From an uncultured virus (IMG/VR IMGVR_UViG_3300046171_000241) (taxonomy: Duplodnaviria > Heunggongvirae > Uroviricota > Caudoviricetes), in the IMG/VR virus record IMGVR_UViG_3300046171_000241: 54,949 nt of DNA, one strand, 5' to 3'. The notes below the pieces were generated by a model, which was not told where the DNA came from, ran no database searches, and saw only the letters and a program-made list of their open reading frames with translations. A program made the translations under genes and the position numbers. Positions 1,463 to 50,059 of the stretch are shown in pieces; position 1 is the stretch's first letter; each line of letters starts with the position of its first letter.

Positions 1463-1499
1463 TGTAGGTACTCCTAAAGTAGTAGAGGGTTTTACTCCC

Positions 1500-1581
1500 C
1501 GTTCCTTCAGTCGTGTGCGTCCCCGAAGGGATGAACGATCCGTTCCGCGACCTACTTGCGTCCCACAGAGTGGGATGAACG
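1500..1581 (-). ncRNA. tandem glutamine riboswitch (glnA-type RNA motif), two aptamers
   Basis: Two units of CGTTCATCCC-loop-GGGACGCA...GGAACG at 1541-1581 and 1500-1537, each closed by a CGTTC/GAACG stem, in the 5' UTR of a DUF4278 gene. Confidence 0.8.
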
Positions 1582-1589
1582 ACAGGTCT

Positions 1590-8394: not shown

Positions 8395-8496
8395 TAAGTG
8401 CGGGGAACACTAGATAAAATATTCCAACTCTACCCTCCAGAGTTGGTATGAAGGACTATTGTTTAGACACGCTGTTTAGTCCTGGTAAGGCGTGTG
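8395..8496 (-). ncRNA. structured psbA leader, PhotoRC-II-like RNA motif
   Basis: Hairpin CCAACTCT-GGAGGGT-AGAGTTGG preceded by TTCATA, plus AGGACTA/TAGTCCT pairing, in the psbA 5' UTR. Confidence 0.6.
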
Positions 8497-8536
8497 CAGG
8501 TAGTAAAGAAATGTTAAGTTCCTTACCGCGCTGATG

Positions 8537-40923: not shown

Positions 40924-41432
40924 TGCATATCCATAGGATAGTTCGGCATATACTTCTCTAAGAGTTTTGGTGAGTGTGGTTTTATCGGATTTTTAATCGG
41001 AGGTTCCTTTTTCTTTTGACTCTCCAATTCATAGACCCTATTACGAAGTTCTGTGGAAGAGTATTGATGACGGCGTTTGTGATAATGCAACTTAATTCCA
41101 TTATCGATACAATATTGTTTCCCAGTAAAATCTCTATCCAAATATTCTTCACTCAAAAATCTAATATTGATTGTTTGAGTTTTGATCATGTTTAAAAGAT
41201 CTGCCTCTGTTTCATAAACAAGAATCTCATCGACATACTTACATCCATGAACTTGAACGTATCTTTCGTAGACAGATTGTGTAGGTTTATTTTTAATTCC
41301 AGGTCTATCAATGGTAGGATCAACCTGAAGTCCTACGATCAAATAATCGCATAATTGTTTTTCCATTTTCAACATTGTAACATGCCCAGCATGAAACAAA
41401 TCAAATGAACTGCAATTAAATCCTATTATCAT
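40920..41432 (-). CDS. cytidylyltransferase (TagD/RfaE-like)
   Basis: FDLFHAGH and SSTELR; start at MIIGF follows a TTGACA-17-TATAAT promoter. Confidence 0.85.
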   Translation of the reverse strand: MIIGFNCSSFDLFHAGHVTMLKMEKQLCDYLIVGLQVDPTIDRPGIKNKPTQSVYERYVQVHGCKYVDEILVYETEADLLNMIKTQTINIRFLSEEYLDRDFTGKQYCIDNGIKLHYHKRRHQYSSTELRNRVYELESQKKKEPPIKNPIKPHSPKLLEKYMPNYPMDMQ

Positions 41433-41450
41433 ATCACTAGTTTTTTTCAG

Positions 41451-41487
41451 ATTATACAAAAAAAGACCCTTGGTGTCAAGGATCTTT
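41451..41487 (-). promoter_or_regulatory. terminator overlapping a sigma70 promoter at the head of the polysaccharide island
   Basis: AAAGATCCTTGACACCAAGGGTCTTTTTTTGTATAAT. Confidence 0.65.
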
Positions 41488-41497
41488 ATGTGGTCTT

Positions 41498-41592
41498 TGC
41501 AGGCTCGCCACTTACTTTTTACCTGAAGTAAGAAACAGGGCGGGAGTGTTACCTCCATCCGCACCACTTACTCTTAGGTAAAGTAAGAAACC
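41498..41592 (-). ncRNA. wcaG-like RNA motif
   Basis: Two TGGYG motifs (GTGGTGCGG, GTGGCGAGCC), each after a CTTACT/AGTAAG hairpin, upstream of polysaccharide genes. Confidence 0.7.
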
Positions 41593-41594
41593 TA

Positions 41595-41786
41595 TTAGTT
41601 CCAGAGTGCTTGAACTTTTGCTTCAAGTTCTATGAACCTTGCATCAACTTCTTGTTGTGCTGAATCGCTGGATTCTAACGCTGCAACCTTTGCTTCAAGT
41701 GCTTTGAGTCTTGCTTCGACTTCTACATCATACTTTGACATCGCTGCACCGCTTGCAGATCTTGCTGCCTTTCCTTGTGTTGACAT
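41595..41786 (-). CDS. small coiled-coil protein
   Basis: SASGAAMSKYDVEVEARLKALE. Confidence 0.7.
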   Translation of the reverse strand: MSTQGKAARSASGAAMSKYDVEVEARLKALEAKVAALESSDSAQQEVDARFIELEAKVQALWN

Positions 41787-41890
41787 TTTAATTAAATAAT
41801 AACTCTTGTATTATTTAGTTTTTAGAGGGTCTAATGACTCCACCAGTTCTGTTTAAGTCCATCCGTGACTTGGGGGTATCCCGACCAGGG

Positions 41891-42133
41891 CTAGTTTACA
41901 CGACTTACCGAGTCTTTAGTATAACAAGGTACACCTTCTGGATCTAACCATTTGGTGTACTCAAAGTCATCAATCGCAGTCAGAGTTGCATCTGATTATC
42001 AAGGAGGATACATGTCACTGTATCGCTTGGACCTAGTGATGTGCCTTCTGAATACGATAGTCTGGCATACCATGTTTCTAGTGTGCCAGACTCAACATAA
42101 CGATACGGGAAACGCTTCTAGAAGAACTTTCAC
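41891..42133 (-). CDS. hypothetical protein, multiply frameshifted
   Basis: Coherent peptide pieces in shifting frames (FPYRYVESGTLE, PDYRIQKA, DNQMQL, DDFEYTKWLDPEGVPCY). Confidence 0.5.
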
Positions 42134-42148
42134 GCTACCTCCACTGAT

Positions 42149-42347
42149 TCAAGATCGACAGCAGACTTGCTCCAACAGAATATCATAATCATCAAGGGCA
42201 TCGCCAGAGAAGACGACACCAGTGTTTTCATAATAACGACGGACCTTTTTGAGAAGTTTCGGATTCTTCACATCCAGGAAGAACTCTCCATTTACCGCAC
42301 CCCTAAGAGTTTGGATATCTTTCTTGAACTTAGTAGTCAGTGTCATT
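42149..42347 (-). CDS. hypothetical protein
   Basis: MTLTTKFKKD...FFLDVKNPKL; downstream of a promoter; 3' end possibly shifted. Confidence 0.6.
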
Positions 42348-42398
42348 GTTCGTTTGTTGACCTTAGTATTATAAGGGTTTGACAGGGTTTCTGTCAAG

Positions 42399-42471
42399 TG
42401 CTTCCTGTGAGGATCGAACTCACCTTAGGCAAATTATGAGTTTGCTGCATTCACCAGATTGCTAAGGAAGC
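42399..42471 (-). tRNA. tRNA with CAT anticodon (elongator Met or Ile2)
   Basis: Cloverleaf with GCAAA-CTCATAA-TTTGC and a GTTCGAT T-loop; G1:C72 pair, so not an initiator. Confidence 0.88.
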
Positions 42472-42474
42472 AAA

Positions 42475-42546
42475 TAGGACTGCTGGGAATTGAACCCAGT
42501 TTACCCCGTTATAAGCAGAGAGCATTAACCAATATGCGACAGTCCC
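42475..42546 (-). tRNA. tRNA-Ile (TAT)
   Basis: CTCTG-CTTATAA-CGGGG anticodon arm and a GTTCAAT T-loop. Confidence 0.82.
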
Positions 42547-42719
42547 TTAGGATCCTTCGTTGTTTGCTCTGTGTATATTCGTATGAGTTCATCATCCGCT
42601 GGAACCATCACTGCTCTTTCCCCTTTATCGTTCTCTACACCTATAGTCTCTCCACTCTCCACTCTCTCCATGAGAGTTTCCCAGTTCTCCTGCCAGTATT
42701 CCACAGAATAAAATTTCAT
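42525..42719 (-). CDS. hypothetical protein, weakly Phd/YefM-like
   Basis: Pattern N...LMERVESGETIGV...AVMVP; the 3' end overlaps the tRNA and may be shifted. Confidence 0.55.
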   Translation of the reverse strand: MKFYSVEYWQENWETLMERVESGETIGVENDKGERAVMVPADDELIRIYTEQTTKDPKGLSHIG

Positions 42720-42738
42720 CGTTGTAGTATGTATGTAA

Positions 42739-43215
42739 TTAGAAATAGTTAATTATGATATTTGCTCTATATTCTTGATCGGTACAAGTTGTGCTGCGAT
42801 GCAATTTAGACGGATCAAAAAAAAGTGCTCTATTTTCAATAGATTTTATTTTTGCCTGCCCCTTGATATCAGTCCTCCCGTTATTAGTATTCAAATAGTA
42901 AATCAAACCTTTGTGCTCATCAGAAAGATCTATGTGCCATTTATGTTTTTTTCTAAAAAAAGTTTTAGGATAAAGATTATACTTGACTCTAAAAATTTGT
43001 TTATGTTTTATTTTACTTAAAATGGGTGCAAGTATATTATAATCTCCATAAATCTTATTAGATTCTGAAACGAGGTGTGTAAAATATATTCCATCATTCA
43101 TATAATTATCAGATACTCCATTACTCAAATAAAACGGAAAGTTTCTATTATTGAGTGTATTTGAAATAATAGATTTAAAATCCCGATGACTCAAAAAGTT
43201 ATCAATAATTTTCAT
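42739..43215 (-). CDS. 2OG-Fe(II) oxygenase-like protein
   Basis: MKIIDNFL, WHID, IYYLNTNNG, ENR, H.STTCTD and R..I.INY; very AT-rich. Confidence 0.8.
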   Translation of the reverse strand: MKIIDNFLSHRDFKSIISNTLNNRNFPFYLSNGVSDNYMNDGIYFTHLVSESNKIYGDYNILAPILSKIKHKQIFRVKYNLYPKTFFRKKHKWHIDLSDEHKGLIYYLNTNNGRTDIKGQAKIKSIENRALFFDPSKLHRSTTCTDQEYRANIIINYF

Positions 43216-43230
43216 GACTTTTTTTGATAA

Positions 43231-43304
43231 TCGGGGTGACAGGATTTGAACCTACGGCCGCTCGCTCCCAAAGCGAGTGCTCTACCAAACTGAGCTACAC
43301 CCCG
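43231..43304 (-). tRNA. tRNA-Pro (TGG)
   Basis: CGGGGTGTAGCTCAG...CTCGC-TTTGGGA-GCGAG...GGTTCAAATCC. Confidence 0.93.
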
Positions 43305-43360
43305 TGGTGGTAGTTCCTATCGCCGCTAACCCTGAACTACCAAGGAGGTTACCGCAACTA

Positions 43361-43543
43361 TTAGACTCGACCTACTAATGATAGCACACCGTGCGAATAA
43401 AACGCAAGGAGGATACCGCCGAGGATAGCACTTATAATTGTAGCAGTTTTATTGTGTTTGTCAATTGCTTTGTCAATCATTTCCTGGCACTGCTTCTCAG
43501 TGATATAGTGCTCAGGTTTGATTTCATCCATCCTGTGAGACAT
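43361..43543 (-). CDS. small membrane protein
   Basis: CQEMIDKAIDKHN followed by a transmembrane helix. Confidence 0.65.
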   Translation of the reverse strand: MSHRMDEIKPEHYITEKQCQEMIDKAIDKHNKTATIISAILGGILLAFYSHGVLSLVGRV

Positions 43544-43756
43544 TTGGTAAATTACTCATCGGGTCCGGTTGCCCGCTTACTATAGCACAAGCTCTCTTGT
43601 AAAAGTAGTTGTCTGTTGTGCCGTTTTCCTCAAATTTCTCTTTGATGATTTGCCAATTTGCCAGTTCGTCTGGATGCATGATTGGTAGAAAGAATGCCTA
43701 CACACTATCTAGTGTATCAGCTTGTTACAAAAAGATTAAATATGTGGAAATTATAA

Positions 43757-43843
43757 CGGAAGAGGTGGGATTTGAACCCACGGAGGACTTGCACCCTCGC
43801 TGGTTTTCAAGACCAGTGCCATAAACCACTCGACCACTCTTCC
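43757..43843 (-). tRNA. tRNA-Ser (TGA)
   Basis: CTGGT-CTTGAAA-ACCAG with a long variable arm. Confidence 0.93.
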
Positions 43844-44092
43844 CTATTTGACTTCAAAGTCCAGTCTGCGAACCTTGCGTCTACGTCTCTCCTCTTGATA
43901 GAGAAGTTCTGTTCTAGAGAAATGACTATCAATCTTATTCTCTACGTTGTTGGATACCATTACAACTTTGTCTAAGTCAACGGCACCAACTTTGTTATCC
44001 ACAACTCTTACTTGATTGGGGCAACCGCAGAACTGAACTTTACTAGTGCTTGTCAGTTCTGTTGCACATTCTTTGCAGCGTACAGTAATCAT
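43844..44092 (-). CDS. small Cys-rich (zinc-ribbon-like) protein
   Basis: MITVRCKEC...CGCPN; start placed downstream of tRNA-Val. Confidence 0.7.
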   Translation of the reverse strand: MITVRCKECATELTSTSKVQFCGCPNQVRVVDNKVGAVDLDKVVMVSNNVENKIDSHFSRTELLYQEERRRRKVRRLDFEVK

Positions 44093-44117
44093 TGGACATG
44101 TTCCTCCTTGGTGGGAA

Positions 44118-44189
44118 TGCTTGATGACGGGATCGAACCGCCGACCTACTCCGTGTAAAGGAGTCACTCTACCGCTGAGTTAATCAAGC
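44118..44189 (-). tRNA. tRNA-Val (TAC)
   Basis: ACTCC-TTTACAC-GGAGT and a GTTCGAT T-loop. Confidence 0.92.
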
Positions 44190-44325
44190 AAGACACTACA
44201 CTTATCCGTATGCTATATGGGCATCACACCCAGTATACTGACAGTATGTAGTGGAGCAAGAGAGTAACCAACTCTCAATCACAGTGTGGTTAGCACCGTC
44301 GCGGGCGAGCTCATTCCCCGTCGAA
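44190..44325 (-). ncRNA. multi-stem inter-tRNA RNA, possibly manA motif
   Basis: Stems GAGAGT/ACTCTC, CACTACA/TGTAGTG and TGGGT/GCCCA; no ORF; lies between tRNA-Asn and tRNA-Val. Confidence 0.5.
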
Positions 44326-44398
44326 CTCCTCCACCTGGACTCGAACCAGGGACAGGGTGATTAACAGTCACCTGCTCTACCAGCTGAGCTATAGAGGA
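44326..44398 (-). tRNA. tRNA-Asn (GTT)
   Basis: GGTGA-CTGTTAA-TCACC and a GTTCGAG T-loop. Confidence 0.93.
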
Positions 44399-44572
44399 TT
44401 ATTTTTTTGTTCCCTCTTTAGTTTGAAATACAGTTTATAGTACCTATCACACATTTCTCTAAGGACATCTCTGTCTTCATCGAATCCAAGTTTCTTGGTA
44501 TGTGTGTGGGAACCTTCTAACTCTGATATGAGCAGAAGAATTTCAACTGGTTTCATGTTCCTAAATCAGGAA

Positions 44573-44644
44573 AGCGGAGTATCGGAATCGAACCGACGAC
44601 ATCTAACTTGGAAGGATAGCGTTCTACCGCTGAACTAACTCCGC
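44573..44644 (-). tRNA. tRNA-Gly (TCC)
   Basis: GCGGAGT acceptor stem; CTTCCAA loop; one mismatch in the anticodon stem. Confidence 0.88.
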
Positions 44645-44697
44645 ATAGGTGGGCCTTACATGGAAGAGGAGGTGGTGGTGGTCTCTCCAATGCCCAG

Positions 44698-44771
44698 CGA
44701 CTCAGATAGGATTTGAACCTACGACCGACTGCTTAGAAGGCAGTTGCTCTATCCTGCTGAGCTATTGAGTC
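44698..44771 (-). tRNA. tRNA-Arg (TCT)
   Basis: ACTGC-CTTCTAA-GCAGT and a GGTTCAAATCC T-arm. Confidence 0.93.
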
Positions 44772-45001
44772 ATAGGTAGGGGATTAACCCCTTTCAACGC
44801 CGTCGTTGTTTTCGACAAAATCATCATACTGCTTTTCTGTGATTTCGTCAAGTGATACAACTTCTAAATCTTCTTTAGGGATCGAACCATTCATCAAACT
44901 CTGCCATGATGGCCATCTGATCGTAGATTCGTTCTACACCTTTGTCATTGTACTCTTGGACTTTACCAATTGCCCATTCACGAACTTCGGATACAATTTC
45001 T

Positions 45002-45445
45002 TCAGTCTCCACCATAATAGTCTTTTCGGAAGTACCTGCTGAGGATGTTACCATTGTAGTATGCAGGTCCTCCTGTGTCAAGGGATTCGGTGAGGACTCC
45101 GTTGAGGAAGAGTTGTTTTGTTTCTTCGAAGTTTGTTTTGCCAGGTGTTTTATGTAATGACAGGATAGTTCTACTAAAATTTTGTCTACCCAACCGTTCA
45201 ATGTCTTCTTTAAGTTCCGGACAAGACCCATAATACTTTTTCCAATCAGATTCTTTTTTTACTCGGCGTTTCTTTCCTGGAGGTTTCCGATGACTCCAAA
45301 AATACTTTCGCCCAATGTATTGTCGTTGGTTTGTGAGATTGGTAATGTTATAAACAAAACCATAGTAGTCGTGAACATCGTCACTAGTAAAAGGTCTCTC
45401 CAAATAGATCCATGGATTTTCATAATCAATATCGATACTCATCAA
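45002..45445 (-). CDS. GIY-YIG-like nuclease domain protein
   Basis: GFVYNITN...RQYIGRK and SDWKKYYGS. Confidence 0.7.
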   Translation of the reverse strand: MMSIDIDYENPWIYLERPFTSDDVHDYYGFVYNITNLTNQRQYIGRKYFWSHRKPPGKKRRVKKESDWKKYYGSCPELKEDIERLGRQNFSRTILSLHKTPGKTNFEETKQLFLNGVLTESLDTGGPAYYNGNILSRYFRKDYYGGD

Positions 45446-45620
45446 TAATGTTTAACACCTTGTCGAGATATTTATGTGCCATATCTCGATCCCCTGCCAT
45501 ATGGTATCAGGTTCATCGTATACATCATTTTTTAATTTGAGTACACGATTTTTTAACTCTTCTTTCTTCAGTTCATTCTTAGGCATAGGGGAAACTCATG
45601 TCCCCCTATTTAAGCACAAT

Positions 45621-46814
45621 TCAAAGTTGGAATCCACTGAATGTGTCCTTTTTCACATCTTGCTTGATTCCACCAACAACATAAGACTCAACTTCAGTCT
45701 CCTGTGGTGCTACCTGAAGACCCTTAGAAGAGATCCAGTGCTGTGTCCAAGGCAATGGGTTTGCTGATGCTGCAATATCATATACAGGGACGCAGACCGA
45801 ATGCCTTTAAGACGACGATTAGCAATCCACTCAACATATTGTTGAAGGAGTTTATCATTGAGACCAATCATTGATCCATCTTGGAACAGATAATCTGCCC
45901 AACGTTTCTCTTCATTAACAGCTTTATCAAACTGTTTGTAAGTCCACTCCTCTTCTTCCTTCATGATCTGTGCCATTTCAGGATCATCACCCTTCTTCCA
46001 CTTGTTCAGAATGTTCTGGGTGATTGCCAAGTGTTGGTTCTCGTCTCTTGCAATGAGGGAGATAATTTTTGCTGAACCTTCCATAAGTTTGAGTTCACCG
46101 AAGGCGAAACTACAAGCAAAAGAAACATAAAAACGAATACCTTCTAGTATGTTGACATTTGCAACTGCTCTATAAAGTTTACGTTTAAGTTCATACTTAC
46201 CTTCCAGTGCATATGGAACTTGCTCTAATGCATGTTGCCAATCGTTTGAGTTATCATAATGATGAGCACTTTGAATAAAGTCATCATATGCTCCTGTAAC
46301 ACTTGCAGCACGTTCTAGAATACGTGGATCGGTGACAATCTTATCAAAGACCTCTGAAGGGTCTGAGTAGACGTTCTTGATGATATACGTATAGGAACGA
46401 CTATGGATCATCTCCATGAATCCCCATACTTCCATACATGCTTCCTAGTTCAGGTAAGGAACAGTAAGGAATGAATGCCATACCAGGACCACGACCCTGA
46501 ATAGAGTCAAGCATAATTTGATACTTCAAGTTAGAAGTATAGATATGCTTTTGTTCTGGACGGAGCAATTGATAGTCACCACGATCCTTCTGTAAGGAAA
46601 CCTCCTCAGGTCTCCAGAAGTATCCCAATTGTTGTGTGGTAAGTTTATCAAAGATAGGATACTTATATGAATCATACCTCTGGACACCCAAAGGTTTACC
46701 AAAGAACATTGGTTGTTTTTTGGTATCAACTTGTTCTGTGTTAAAGACAGTCATGCCCTTAACTTCTGTTTTCACGTTTTCCACTGATGATACCTTAAAC
46801 TGCACAGGATTCAC
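45621..46814 (-). CDS. nrdB: ribonucleotide reductase class Ia beta subunit (frameshifted in this sequence)
   Basis: FWRPEE, EMIHSRSY, LEGIRFYVSF, RDENQH and C-terminal APQETEVESY; breaks at ~46445 and ~45795. Confidence 0.93.
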
Positions 46815-49094
46815 ACTCTCCCTCCTCGGCGTGTTCTAGATCGGTTAACAAACTATCCAAATTTGGTTTCTCTTCTTCAACCTCATCACTCTTACTATCA
46901 TGAGTATTTTGATAGTAAGAAGTCTTCCAACCGTACTTATATGTAGTTAAGAAATCTTGCGCCATTACGGACACAGGAACTTCATTATCAGGATAGTTCT
47001 CTGGATTATAACTCCAGTTACCAGAAATTGCTTGGTCAAAGAATTTCTGCATCACAGGCAACAACATTAATGTAACCACGATTAGACTCATATCCCACAG
47101 AAGAGTATAGTTATTCTTCAGTGTTCCATATTGAGGAACAATCTGCTTAAGAGGTCCCTTCTTGGATTTTTTAATGGACAAGTAGTCTCTAGGTGGTTCG
47201 ATTCCATTGGTTGCATTTGACACAACGGAACTGCTTTCCGATGGCAATTGTGCGGACAATGTTGAGTGCCTGAGACCCGAAACTCGTTGATAGATGACCT
47301 AAGACCCTCCCAATCATGCACTAACTCCTGACTACAAATTTCATCGACATCCGTTCTTATATGTATCAATTGGCAAGAATTCCATCAGCATAATTTGTAC
47401 GACCAAAGTTTTCACACCATCCTTTCTCCTTTAGCAAGTTCGATTAGATGCTTTAAGAAGATAATATTGGAATGATTCAGAGAGCCATGACAGCATCCCA
47501 TGCCTCCGTGAGTCGATAGCTATACCCAAGTTTGCAAGGTATGTGCCTAGACCAAATAAATCCATACCCAAGTGATCTACGTGCCCTTTGTAGCGCGTTC
47601 TGCTGCCGATACAGGATACTCTTGATAATCAATCAACTTCCTCAAGACACGAACAGAGATGCACAAAGATTCTCCTCATTCATCGAACGAATTCTTTCCT
47701 ACATTAACAGCAGACAGAATACACAACGCAATCTCACCAATATCATCATCAATATGATTAATAGGATCTGTTGGCAAAGTAATCTCTTGACAGAGGTTAC
47801 TCATATTTACTTTATCCTTGAATGAGGAGTGAGTATTACAGTGATCGATGTTCATAAGATACAATCGACCAGTCTCTGCTCTTTCTTTCAGGATATCTAA
47901 GATAAGTTTTTGTGCCCCAATAGTTTTTCTTGGAACAGACTCATCTCGTTCAAGACTAACATATAAGTCATCGAACCTATCAGTACCAAAGGAATCATAC
48001 AGACCTGGTACATCATGCGGTGAGAACAAGCTAATCTCTCCATTCGCAATGAAACGTTCGTAGAAAAGTTTTGAAATTTGGATTGAGTAGTCAAGTTTGC
48101 GTACCCGATTGTCTTCTGTACCTTTGTTGTTTTTGAGAACAATGATGTCCTCTATTTCTTGGTGCCAGATAGGAAAGTGAACTGTAGCAGAACCACCTCT
48201 GATGCCGTTTTGAGTGCAGCATCGTACAGTTGATTCAAACTTTTTAAGGAAGGGGACCACGCCTGTGTGTTGTACCTCTCCACCTCTGATTTTAGCGTTG
48301 ATGCCACGGATTCGACCTGCGTTGATGCCGATTCCTGCGCGTTGTGCAACATATTTACCAATAGCCATGTCACTGCTAAAGATAGAATCGAGGGTGTCAT
48401 CAACATCAACGAGAACACAACTCGCAAACTGACGCAGTGGGGTTCTGACCCCTGCCATGATTGGCGTTGGGATGTTGAGTCTGTGTTTGAGATTGCGTCA
48501 TAATACCTTTTGACATAAGACATTCTAGTGTCTTTTGGATACTCTGCAAAAATTGTCAGAGCAATCATGATATACATGAACTGTGGAGTTTCATAAACTC
48601 CACCATTACTTCTATCTTGTACTAGGTATTTATCCACAACCTGTCCTTAGACCAGCATAAGTGAACATAAAATCACGGTCATGATCGATAAATCCATTTG
48701 CCTTATCAATTTCTTCTTTAGAATATTTGATAAAGATGCCCTTATCATAAACATCAGAATTAGTACAACTCATAATATGAGTTTCTAATGCAGGCATCTG
48801 GCGCATTTTTCCATACAAACTCTTTCGTACAGAAAAAAGTAGAAGTCTAGCAGCAACGAATTGGTAATTGGGATGGTCCAAATCAATCAAGTCGCTTGCA
48901 GACTTAATCAAAATCTCCTGGATTTCTCCAGTAGTAATTCCATCATAAAATTGGATACCAGATTTCATCTCAACCTGACTCGCAGAGACCCCTGCAAGAC
49001 CAGTACATGCCTCCTCAACCATAAGATGCATCTTATCCAGGTCTAAAGACTCAATACGTCCATCTCTCTTTTTAACTTTGGTGCCGTTGCTCAT
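46795..49094 (-). CDS. nrdA: ribonucleotide reductase class Ia alpha subunit (multiple frameshifts)
   Basis: ATP cone, ETPQ, ASCV, SNLCQEI, KTSYY and C-terminal CESC across several fragments. Confidence 0.93.
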
Positions 49095-50059
49095 ATTTTT
49101 TTCCAAGTGTTAAACTTAAGTTTTGCTTCTAAACCAGAATATGTATTTGATTCTATCACAGACTGCACGTCCAGTCCAGACATCACCATATCATTTATAT
49201 CTTTGTCATCTATGCTGTTTGGCCAGATGACTACGGAGTCGCCACTATCGATAGTGTTTCCAATTCGCCGGACGATTTCAATGTTCCTGGGTTCGTTATC
49301 ATATATCCAAACAGGATTGCTGATCCCCCAACGATCAACATTAGCATCAGCTCCACACATAGCAATCGAGTTGCGAATGAACGTGCTGTCAAAAGGTCCT
49401 TCTGTGATATAGACTGGAGCATCCTTTCTGATGTTATCAAGTCCGTAGATTTTTGGTGCGTCATCGTTAAGCATTACCGTGATGTATTTAACCTTACTCG
49501 GACCTAGAGATCTCCCCTGCAATCCAATTAAGTTCTTTTCATAATAAAGAGGAATAATAATTCTTTCTTCATCATATTTTGTATCTTCAAAAGTTTGTTT
49601 GAGTGTATTTACAAATTTCTTAAACCCTTCAGCATAATAAAATTGTGTTGAATCAAGTTTTCTTGCAGTTAGATATCCATCTGAACTAGGATTCTCTGAT
49701 GCCTTAGGCAATCGTATCTTTGTTTTAAACTTAGGAACCTCAAAGTGAAACTTAGGTTCTTCTACTACAGTTGCCCTACCAGTAGTTCCTTGTTTAAATC
49801 TCTCAAACACATATTGTTTATGAATTACAGGATCTAAATGTTTTATGAAACTACTGAAGGTCATAGATGACCCACAGTTGTGACATTTAAAGTTAACATC
49901 TGCCTTCATTGCATAGAGATACCCTCTCATCTTTGACTTATTCTTCTTAGAATCTCCGCAGATAGGACAACGAAAGTTGTACAGGTCTGACTTTACTCTT
50001 TTAAACTTCTGCAGTTTTGGAGATATAAGATTGATAAATTTTGAATCAATATGATTCAT
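49091..50059 (-). CDS. DNA primase (T4 gp61-like)
   Basis: RCPICGDS...CHNC zinc finger; TOPRIM EGPFDS and DNEPRN; KDIND. Confidence 0.93.
   Translation of the reverse strand: MNHIDSKFINLISPKLQKFKRVKSDLYNFRCPICGDSKKNKSKMRGYLYAMKADVNFKCHNCGSSMTFSSFIKHLDPVIHKQYVFERFKQGTTGRATVVEEPKFHFEVPKFKTKIRLPKASENPSSDGYLTARKLDSTQFYYAEGFKKFVNTLKQTFEDTKYDEERIIIPLYYEKNLIGLQGRSLGPSKVKYITVMLNDDAPKIYGLDNIRKDAPVYITEGPFDSTFIRNSIAMCGADANVDRWGISNPVWIYDNEPRNIEIVRRIGNTIDSGDSVVIWPNSIDDKDINDMVMSGLDVQSVIESNTYSGLEAKLKFNTWKKI

What the first reader, a model, noticed from the sequence alone, without database searches (positions are those of the whole stretch)
43305..43357. tRNA-like minihelix ending in ACCA directly upstream of tRNA-Pro
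On the minus strand, GGTAGTTC-17 nt-GAACTACC is followed by ACCA and then immediately by base 1 of tRNA-Pro. RNase P cleavage of tRNA-Pro would release an acceptor-stem mimic with a CCA 3' end. None of the eight true tRNAs encodes CCA. The 5' part contains ACCTCCTT, which matches the anti-Shine-Dalgarno end of 16S rRNA. Inference: a processed small RNA such as a tRNA mimic, a decoy for anticodon nucleases or synthetases, or a translation modulator.
Basis: partly seen in the sequence, partly recalled or inferred. Interest (0 to 1): 0.7.

Follow-up and report, generated by a model that had tools for sequence, protein, structure and literature searches.

The report
Cyanophage promoter-locked pseudoknot RNA
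The hairpin is one half of a small knotted RNA that many marine cyanobacterial viruses place at the very start of an early transcript, often just before a tRNA; it is not a tRNA mimic, matches no catalogued RNA family, and its job is still open.

Summary
The stem and ACCA are there, but they are part of something larger. Window 43357-43308 (minus strand) is a 50-nt H-type pseudoknot: the 17-nt 'loop' pairs with the 5' flank. Both stems covary across 86 and 100 distinct variants. I found 385 distinct contexts and 203 distinct cores in marine phage and metagenome contigs, including P-SSM2, S-SM2, Bellamy, S-SKS1 and ACG-2014f. CCA is not conserved (11 of 223) and the anti-SD match lies inside the knot (13 of 133), so the tRNA-mimic reading fails. 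An invariant CCUU loop probably forms base triples with the invariant GAA strand (inferred). A third helix (P0) pairs the predicted +1 nucleotide of a sigma70-type promoter with the first core base, even across loops of up to about 240 nt that hold other RNAs such as manA. The cargo downstream is arbitrary: tRNA-Arg/Pro 250, ORFs 74, a new promoter 21 of 385. Best reading (0.45): a stable early small RNA acting in trans, released here by RNase P. Rivals: cis 5'-end protector, ribozyme, riboswitch. No Rfam match; no description found in ten literature searches.

The parts
43437..43464 (-). sigma70-type promoter (-35 at 43464-43459, 16-nt spacer, extended -10 at 43442-43437), inside the upstream ORF
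   Evidence: 11 of 12 consensus match with TG; same promoter in all 15 sequences of this subtype, window included. Activity not tested.
43425..43429 (-). 5' arm of helix P0; 43429 is the predicted first (or near-first) transcribed base, G
   Evidence: 7 nt after the -10 box; pairs with 43361-43357 in the minimum-energy fold of the leader in 15 of 15 subtype sequences, with C-G/U-A exchange. In the window the isolated 5-bp helix scores +1.7 kcal/mol and the nested MFE of the whole 125 nt does not form it, so it rests on the comparison.
43357..43361 (-). 3' arm of P0, ending at core base 1 (U here, C in nearly all relatives); overlaps the stop codon of the upstream ORF
43308..43357 (-). 50-nt conserved core (H-type pseudoknot)
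   Evidence: model R1 scores 74.9 bits, the only strong hit in the window
43346..43354 (-). P1 5' arm (core 4-12), pairs with 43332-43324; position 6:32 is a G.G/A.G mismatch or C-G
   Evidence: 6 pairs with changes on both sides
43342..43345 (-). loop 1, invariant CCUU; proposed third strand in the major groove of P2
   Evidence: invariant in alignments A2 and A3, although several search patterns fixed it; it was free. U16 is T in 133 of 133 while base 50 is free. Triples inferred, not shown.
43334..43341 (-).
   Evidence: outer pairs covary, inner three pairs do not vary apart from C-G to U-G
43324..43332 (-).
43317..43323 (-). loop 3 (core 35-41), nearly invariant
   Evidence: left free in scan 52: C36, A38, A40, G41 in 120 of 120 structured hits, G35 119, G37 118
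43309..43316 (-). P2 3' arm; its first three bases GAA are the proposed purine strand of the triples
   Evidence: 0 of 47 stretches with A43 or A44 changed form both stems
43305..43308 (-). unpaired base 50 and 3-nt spacer (ACCA here; not conserved)
43231..43304 (-). tRNA-Pro(UGG); its RNase P site would form the 3' end of the upstream RNA
   Evidence: processing inferred
43361..43543 (-). 60-aa ORF of unknown function; holds the promoter and most of the P0 loop
   Evidence: no Pfam hit at E 0.1; annotated hypothetical in Bellamy

Best explanation
A phage small RNA gene. Host RNA polymerase starts at an early sigma70-type promoter; the first bases pair with the bases just before the core (helix P0), so the 5'-triphosphate end is tucked against the core. 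The core folds as an H-type pseudoknot whose CCUU loop lies in the major groove of P2 as C.G-C and U.A-U triples, and whose loop 3 packs on P1. Where a tRNA follows, host RNase P cuts 3 nt downstream and frees an RNA protected at both ends (about 125 nt in this window, mostly 60-80 nt in relatives). The RNA most likely acts in trans early in infection by binding a host or phage protein, or a small ligand, through its invariant junction bases, as a decoy or inhibitor. SHOWN by comparison: conservation, P1, P2, P0, promoter geometry, cargo independence. INFERRED: triples, start site, RNase P release, accumulation, trans action, any target.
For: One copy in each of 8 of 8 positive genomes, at changing places: before tRNA-Arg 176, tRNA-Pro 72, other tRNA 2, an ORF 74 (57 different N-termini), a fresh promoter 21, other 25, cut off 15, of 385 contexts (classes by simple rules, contexts not independent). 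S-SKS1 has it with the next promoter directly behind. Promoter of at least 10/12 within 90 nt in 298 of 377, 8.2 in shuffles. Stem of at least 5 bp from the start site to base 1 in 300 of 346, 134 of 1730 with the arm shuffled; the partner of base 1 lies 6 nt (272) or 7 nt (21) after the -10 box in 293 of 303 when 2-12 was allowed. Insertions go into the P0 loop (manA in L318), not in front of it. Element-tRNA spacer matches tRNA-tRNA spacers (2-5 nt in 45 of 47 junctions). Contigs of 4 of 4 RNA libraries from four studies cover the element.
Against: No terminator of its own was seen, and it is always the 5' end of a longer transcript, as a cis element would be. No data show a discrete RNA: all runs offered were contigs, which give no ends, strand or level, and may hold DNA. 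Absent from 12 of 12 other cyanomyophage genomes tested, so it is dispensable or replaced there. No partner gene is a constant neighbour; manA does not co-occur (3 of 8 against 4 of 12). One contig has two copies (L149, L150). The triples rest on invariance, not on compensatory change. One of five covariation measures on A3 was not above shuffles (138 of 500).
Confidence: 0.45

Rival explanations
1. Cis-acting 5'-end module: the fold hides the 5'-triphosphate and blocks RNase J/E entry, or modifies the elongating polymerase (put-like antitermination), so that one strong early phage transcript is kept or read through.
For: Always at +1 and in the sense of its cargo. Cyanobacteria have RNase E and the 5'-3' nuclease RNase J, and RNase E rises during P-SSP7 infection (PMC10989914, passages).
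Against: One copy per genome with arbitrary cargo, and 21 of 385 copies with a new promoter right behind. A 5' hairpin alone should protect an end (recalled). A leader that RNase P cuts off does little for the mature tRNA.
Confidence: 0.2
2. A new small ribozyme: the invariant bases around the P0/P1 junction (U2, G3, C4, G34-A38) form an active site that cuts the RNA there or acts on its own 5'-triphosphate (removal, capping or joining).
For: The predicted +1 base is held next to the invariant cluster in 293 of 303 contexts. C36 never varies while G35 and G37 occasionally do (P-SSM2 has U37), as expected of a catalytic base. Phage tRNAs are flanked by self-cleaving theta ribozymes elsewhere (PMC10879173, passages).
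Against: No match to any Rfam ribozyme. Only one base lies between P2 5' and P1 3', so the P3/L3 module of HDV-like ribozymes is missing. No activity data.
Confidence: 0.15
3. A riboswitch aptamer (triple-helix pseudoknot of SAM-II-like build) that controls translation of the next ORF or RNase P access to the tRNA leader.
For: Invariant loops around a probable triplex; 5' position; AGGA at the start of the P2 3' strand; P2 ends four bases before tRNA +1. manA and wcaG of cyanophages were proposed as riboswitch candidates with varied cargo (PMC2864571, passages).
Against: No terminator or alternative stem was seen; start codons lie 15-34 nt after P2 in 65 of 74 ORF contexts, too far for AGGA to be their SD site; cargo shares no pathway; copies without cargo persist.
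Confidence: 0.1
4. tRNA acceptor-stem mimic, possibly with CCA added after release by the host enzyme.
For: P2 plus one unpaired base plus three spacer bases has the layout of a tRNA 3' end in this array; these tRNAs need host CCA addition.
Against: CCA at chance level, base 50 and the outer pairs free; no T arm; many copies have no tRNA behind them.
Confidence: 0.05
5. gp32 translational operator, as in T4 gene 32.
For: Several copies lie 25-33 nt before a gp32 start with an A/C-rich linker; T4 gp32 nucleates on a leader pseudoknot (PMC3014915 and PMC535899, passages).
Against: 0 of 79 gp32 leaders carry it (1 of 80 loci not parsed) and model R1 finds none; a 99%-identical gp32 has manA in that slot instead (L466); most copies are far from gp32.
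Confidence: 0.03

Closest known systems
manA (RF01745) and wcaG (RF01761) RNAs of cyanophages (Weinberg et al. 2010, PMC2864571)
   Same: Orphan structured RNAs of marine T4-like cyanophages, in 5' regions of varied genes and in tRNA clusters; manA shares slots with this element and can sit inside its P0 loop.
   Different: No sequence or structure match; 50-52-nt pseudoknot core against 98-192-nt models; distributions differ.
T4 RNA C and RNA D (species 1 and 2)
   Same: Small RNAs from a T4-like tRNA region (PMC3014915, passage); thought to be processed out with the tRNAs (recalled).
   Different: Recalled as 120-140 nt, tRNA-like and CCA-ended; this RNA is a pseudoknot without conserved CCA and often stands without tRNA. 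No sequence comparison was made.
Type III antitoxin RNAs ToxI/CptI (PMC4627078)
   Same: 36-45-nt H-type pseudoknots with triplex contacts that bind a protein in trans; a model for how this RNA could work as a decoy.
   Different: They are tandem repeats upstream of their toxin gene and are cut by it; this is a single unit with its own 5' helix and no constant neighbour.
Theta (minimal HDV-like) ribozymes (PMC10879173)
   Same: Small pseudoknotted RNAs abutting phage tRNAs.
   Different: They lie 3' of the tRNA, are nested double pseudoknots and come from gut phages; this lies 5' and has a single H-type knot.
T4/T2/RB69 gene 32 operator pseudoknot (PMC3014915, PMC535899)
   Same: H-type pseudoknot in a T4-like phage leader; a few copies sit before gp32.
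   Different: About 28 nt in T4; tied to gene 32; here 0 of 79 gp32 leaders carry the element.
SAM-II-type riboswitch fold; MALAT1 3' end (both recalled)
   Same: H-type knot with major-groove triples; 3' end made by RNase P at a downstream tRNA-like unit.
   Different: No Rfam match, no expression platform; the analogy is architectural only and comes from no call.

Membership tests
tRNA-like acceptor mimic (minihelix, viral TLS) | conserved NCCA 3' end | tested here: not met
   11 of 223 end in CCA; 8 of 149 against 5.5 expected
tRNA-like acceptor mimic (minihelix, viral TLS) | conserved discriminator and first pairs (synthetase identity) | tested here: not met
   base 50 A91/T20/C11/G11; outer P2 pairs covary
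tRNA-like acceptor mimic (minihelix, viral TLS) | CCA addition or aminoacylation of the released RNA | not testable with these tools
   needs 3' RACE and charging assays
Any Rfam 15 family | score at or near gathering threshold | tested here: not met
   none over the element; best overlap YrlA 19.1 bits against 69, E 1.6; none over the long class at E 0.5 in 20 loci
Bacterial Y RNA (YrlA) | Ro60/TROVE gene in the same genome, tRNA-like D/T arms | tested here: not met
   TROVE 0 of 20 phage genomes, control rang in 2 of 14; host genomes not tested
HDV-like / theta ribozyme | nested double pseudoknot with P3/L3; position 3' of tRNA | tested here: not met
   one base between P2 5' and P1 3' arms; lies 5' of the tRNA
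HDV-like / theta ribozyme | self-cleavage needing a catalytic C | not testable with these tools
   C36 invariant but no assay
Type III toxin-antitoxin antitoxin | tandem repeats upstream of a toxin ORF | tested here: not met
   single unit; 57 different ORF starts or tRNAs downstream; one copy per genome
Type III toxin-antitoxin antitoxin | binds and inhibits a ToxN/CptN/TenpN nuclease | not tested
   no cyanobacterial genome handle was available; needs a host survey and an assay
T4 gene 32 operator | constant position upstream of gp32 | tested here: not met
   0 of 79 leaders
Riboswitch | expression platform and coherent downstream pathway | tested here: not met
   cargo arbitrary, start codons mostly 15-34 nt away; no terminator found in window 41400-45500 near the element
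Riboswitch | ligand-dependent folding | not testable with these tools
   needs in-line probing
H-type pseudoknot (fold class) | two crossing stems, each with compensatory changes | tested here: met
   99.0% of cells paired against 88.6% shuffled and at most 50.6% slid, 11 of 17 pairs with two-sided change; 12 of 18 on the second set
H-type pseudoknot (fold class) | loop 1 major-groove triples | tested here: inconclusive
   matching invariance and loop length grows with P2 length, but no compensated triple exists among 47 deviant hits

The most novel reading that the evidence does not exclude
A new class of natural ribozyme (or 5'-end-binding RNA) in cyanophages: helix P0 docks the transcript's own 5'-triphosphate G beside an invariant pocket of a triple-helical pseudoknot, which cleaves there or caps, trims or joins that end, and so sets the fate of early phage transcripts and of passenger RNAs carried in its loop.
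Probability: 0.15. Interest if true: 0.93.

Novelty: categorically new. Interest (0 to 1): 0.74.

Why it matters
It is a compact, strongly conserved RNA family in abundant ocean viruses, present in model phages (P-SSM2, S-SM2) and absent from Rfam 15. Its layout is unusual: the transcription start base is paired onto the core whatever lies between, including whole other RNAs. At 60-80 nt with cultured phage-host pairs, it can be tested at once for catalysis, ligand binding and protein partners. It also gives a handle on the old question of what the non-tRNA RNAs of T4-like tRNA clusters do. 'Categorically new' refers to the family and layout; orphan cyanophage RNAs as a category are known, and candidate lists whose alignments I could not read may already hold it unnamed.

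Tried and rejected
Rfam at gathering and E-value level: nothing over the element. Single-sequence folding: not significant and blind to the knot. Own-genome search: no genome held. GTDB pattern scan: 1 match in 185,579 genomes, on a MAG contig with phage-type neighbours (tRNA-Pro, wcaG); the pattern covered only the 50-nt class with GG at 17-18, so absence from hosts is not shown for the 52-nt class, and no cyanobacterial genome could be reached for a model search. gp32 operator: rejected. Two-piece RNA with manA: rejected. Y RNA: rejected. UGGU binding a tRNA's ACCA in T-box fashion: rejected, these bases covary with their P2 partners. Compensated triple variants: none among 35 + 12 hits, all noise. 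Weak R1 hits in S-PM2, S-CAM9, S-IOM18 (E 0.1-0.7) lack the motif on inspection. RNA ends: only contigs on offer; higher summed depth over the element in run X7 (221-416 against 48 upstream) mixes many phages and is no evidence of level. That the P0 partner is G in 303 of 303 follows from the search rule and is not evidence. Earlier findings: three look-ups empty, one returned coliphage tRNA clusters only. A gene-content comparison of positive and negative genomes was not run.

Full report
1. Observation. The window is a T4-like cyanophage segment, 94% identical over 192 nt here to Bellamy and S-SM2. None of the eight tRNAs encodes CCA. Folded alone, the 53-nt span is ordinary (z 0.00) and the hairpin modest (z -2.20). 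Rfam has nothing over it.

2. It is a conserved family. blastn with the 66-nt spacer hit 60 phage records, 55 of them Synechococcus phages: Bellamy, S-SM2, S-SCSM2R, ACG-2014f (most of the 55), RB11-B, S-H68, S-B05, S-B43, SynMITS9220M01; the other 5 are E 6 noise. A longer variant added P-SSM2, P-SSM5, S-SKS1 and three AG-345 viruses. After keeping hits with at least 5 of 6 P1 pairs and removing duplicates there are 385 contexts and 203 cores. Model R2 finds one copy in each of 8 genomes known to carry it and none in 12 others (S-PM2d, S-SCSM1, S-CAM9, S-IOM18, S-RIM32, Syn9, P-SSM4, S-SSM7, P-HM2, S-SM1, S-RSM4, P-TIM68; not a random sample). One GTDB genome matched, on a contig that looks like a mis-binned phage; that scan covered only the short class.

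3. Structure. Numbering the core 1-50 from 43357: P1 pairs 7-12 with 26-31 plus 4-34 and 5-33; P2 pairs 17-24 with 42-49; they cross, giving an H-type pseudoknot with loop 1 = 13-16, one A between the stems and loop 3 = 35-41. On all 86 cores then known, 99.0% of cells pair (shuffled 88.6%, slid registers at most 50.6%) and 11 of 17 pairs change on both sides. On a second set of 100 (17 short, 83 long, picked from the 203), 12 of 18 pairs change on both sides, score 0.531 against 0.184; the count of such pairs alone was reached by 138 of 500 shuffles. Relatedness can inflate these figures, but P1 shows up to six pair types at one position. Position 6:32 is G.G, A.G or C-G. The long class has a 9-bp P2 and one more base in loop 1: 108 cores have 5 bases and 5 outer pairs, 46 have 7 bases and 6 pairs, 34 have 7 and 7, 15 are otherwise.

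4. Probable triples (inference). CCUU in loop 1 runs parallel to GAA in the P2 3' strand, and exactly the three P2 pairs facing C14, U15 and U16 stay fixed while the next pair takes four forms. U16 is T in 133 of 133 cores while base 50 opposite it is free, so U16 is not kept for pairing with 50. Two scans that demanded a change at A43 or A44 returned 35 and 12 stretches, none forming both stems. In most pseudoknots loop 1 lies in the major groove of stem 2 (PMC4627078, passage). No compensated triple was found, so this is not proven. With loop 3 left free, C36, A38, A40 and G41 held in 120 of 120 structured hits (1 of 121 set aside), G35 in 119, G37 in 118.

5. Helix P0 and the promoter. A promoter of at least 10/12 lies within 90 nt in 298 of 377 contexts (shuffled 8.2). 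In 297 of 304 promoter-bearing short leaders base 1 is paired in the fold. Allowing long range, 300 of 346 contexts with 250 nt of upstream sequence have a stem of at least 5 bp from just after a -10 box to base 1 (control 134 of 1730); 46 failed this strict rule, many through a bulge or a weak -35. With offsets 2-12 allowed, the partner of base 1 is 6 nt (272) or 7 nt (21) after the -10 box in 293 of 303, the usual start position (recalled), with 33 different arm pairs. The P0 loop runs from 4 nt to about 240 nt and can enclose manA (L318), other uncatalogued folded sequences, or coding DNA. In the window's subtype the promoter (43464-43437) lies inside the upstream ORF and P0 closes over about 63 nt in 15 of 15 sequences with C-G/U-A exchange. 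In the window itself this helix is weak on its own.

6. What follows it. tRNA-Arg(UCU) 176, tRNA-Pro(UGG) 72, other tRNA 2, an ORF within 45 nt 74 (57 N-termini, among them gp32, Phd-like proteins and PSSM2_175), a new promoter 21, other 25, cut off 15. In the short class the spacer to tRNA +1 is 3 nt in 177 of 223, like the 2-5 nt between neighbouring tRNAs in 45 of 47 junctions. The element moves between the Arg and Pro slots; one contig has both; the window keeps the Arg-slot promoter without the core.

7. CCA: 11 of 223, 8 of 149 against 5.5 expected. ACCTCCTT: 13 of 133. Both are incidental. The idea of a processed small RNA stands.

8. Expression. Contigs of RNA libraries X4, X7, X10 and X12 (four studies) cover the element; one X10 contig runs 43260-43471 without a difference. 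Contigs show no ends or strand and may include DNA, so this is presence only.

9. Mechanism. Shown by comparison: three helices, promoter geometry, cargo independence. Inferred: start at the paired G, RNase P release (RNase P, E, J and Z are present in cyanobacteria; PMC10989914, passages), a stable product, action in trans. I put 0.45 on a trans-acting binder or decoy, since one copy per genome at any strong early promoter is enough and cargo-less copies persist; 0.2 on a cis 5'-end module; 0.15 on a ribozyme, since the start base is held beside the invariant cluster; 0.1 on a riboswitch; 0.05 on a tRNA mimic; 0.03 on a gp32 operator (0 of 79 leaders).

10. Literature. Ten searches listed no paper describing it; one search looked for a 12-base core string and found 0. 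Seen: PMC2864571 passages and a string search of 8 supplements (0 hits; gapped alignments could hide it); PMC10690425 passages, section 2.6 and string searches of its tables, while its alignment archives and figure PDFs were unreadable; PMC5737381 supplement unreadable and main text not read; passages of PMC9964418, PMC3014915, PMC535899, PMC2518516, PMC10989914, PMC4627078, PMC10879173 and bioRxiv 10.64898/2026.10.21.760802 (the preprint's supplements not seen). The unread files may hold the motif as an unnamed candidate, and most subscription papers are outside the library. Comparisons with SAM-II, MALAT1, put RNA and T4 RNA C/D details are recalled.

11. Verdict. A real, apparently uncatalogued structured RNA family of marine cyanomyophages with a well-supported three-helix layout and an open function. 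Interest 0.74.

Noticed in passing
window 44191-44325 (-), between tRNA-Asn and tRNA-Val: 135-nt multi-hairpin spacer, conserved in 17 distinct variants among fetched loci with stem changes; no Rfam hit. A second candidate RNA flanked by tRNAs.
   Followed up: partly
window 44645-44696 (-), between tRNA-Arg and tRNA-Gly: 52-nt hairpin with a C/A-repeat loop, 24 distinct variants in fetched loci; no Rfam hit.
   Followed up: partly
window 41790-41910 (-): Conserved folded stretch upstream of a 63-aa ORF and the wcaG RNA; similar pieces in L001, L002, L040, L186, L331, L785; no Rfam hit.
   Followed up: partly
window 44772-44851 (-): Promoter and hairpin before tRNA-Arg, the slot where many relatives carry the pseudoknot; here the core is missing.
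   Followed up: yes
L738, L776, L761, L703, L780, L668, L687 (upstream of the core): An uncatalogued 100-170-nt folded motif recurs upstream of the core, inside the P0 loop where the start site was reached; no Rfam hit at E 0.5 in the five of these that were scanned. Further recurring motifs follow the core in L668, L683, L688, L748 and L322/L669.
   Followed up: no
L004/L005 about 2330-2500: P0 closes over about 170 nt that lie within an annotated ORF.
   Followed up: no
window 41497-41595, 8411-8506, 1496-1583 (-): Known Rfam motifs wcaG, PhotoRC-II and glutamine riboswitch.
   Followed up: no
window 42475-42546 (-): tRNA-Ile with the rare UAU anticodon, overlapping the end of a Phd-like ORF 42525-42719 (Pfam below cut-off).
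   Followed up: no
window 44875-49106 (-): Ribonucleotide reductase genes and neighbours appear in several frames and pieces, which suggests indel errors in this assembly.
   Followed up: no
L286, L300, L597, L615, L642: The core precedes a conserved leader that resembles the psbA 5' region; Rfam gave no hit on L286, L300.
   Followed up: no
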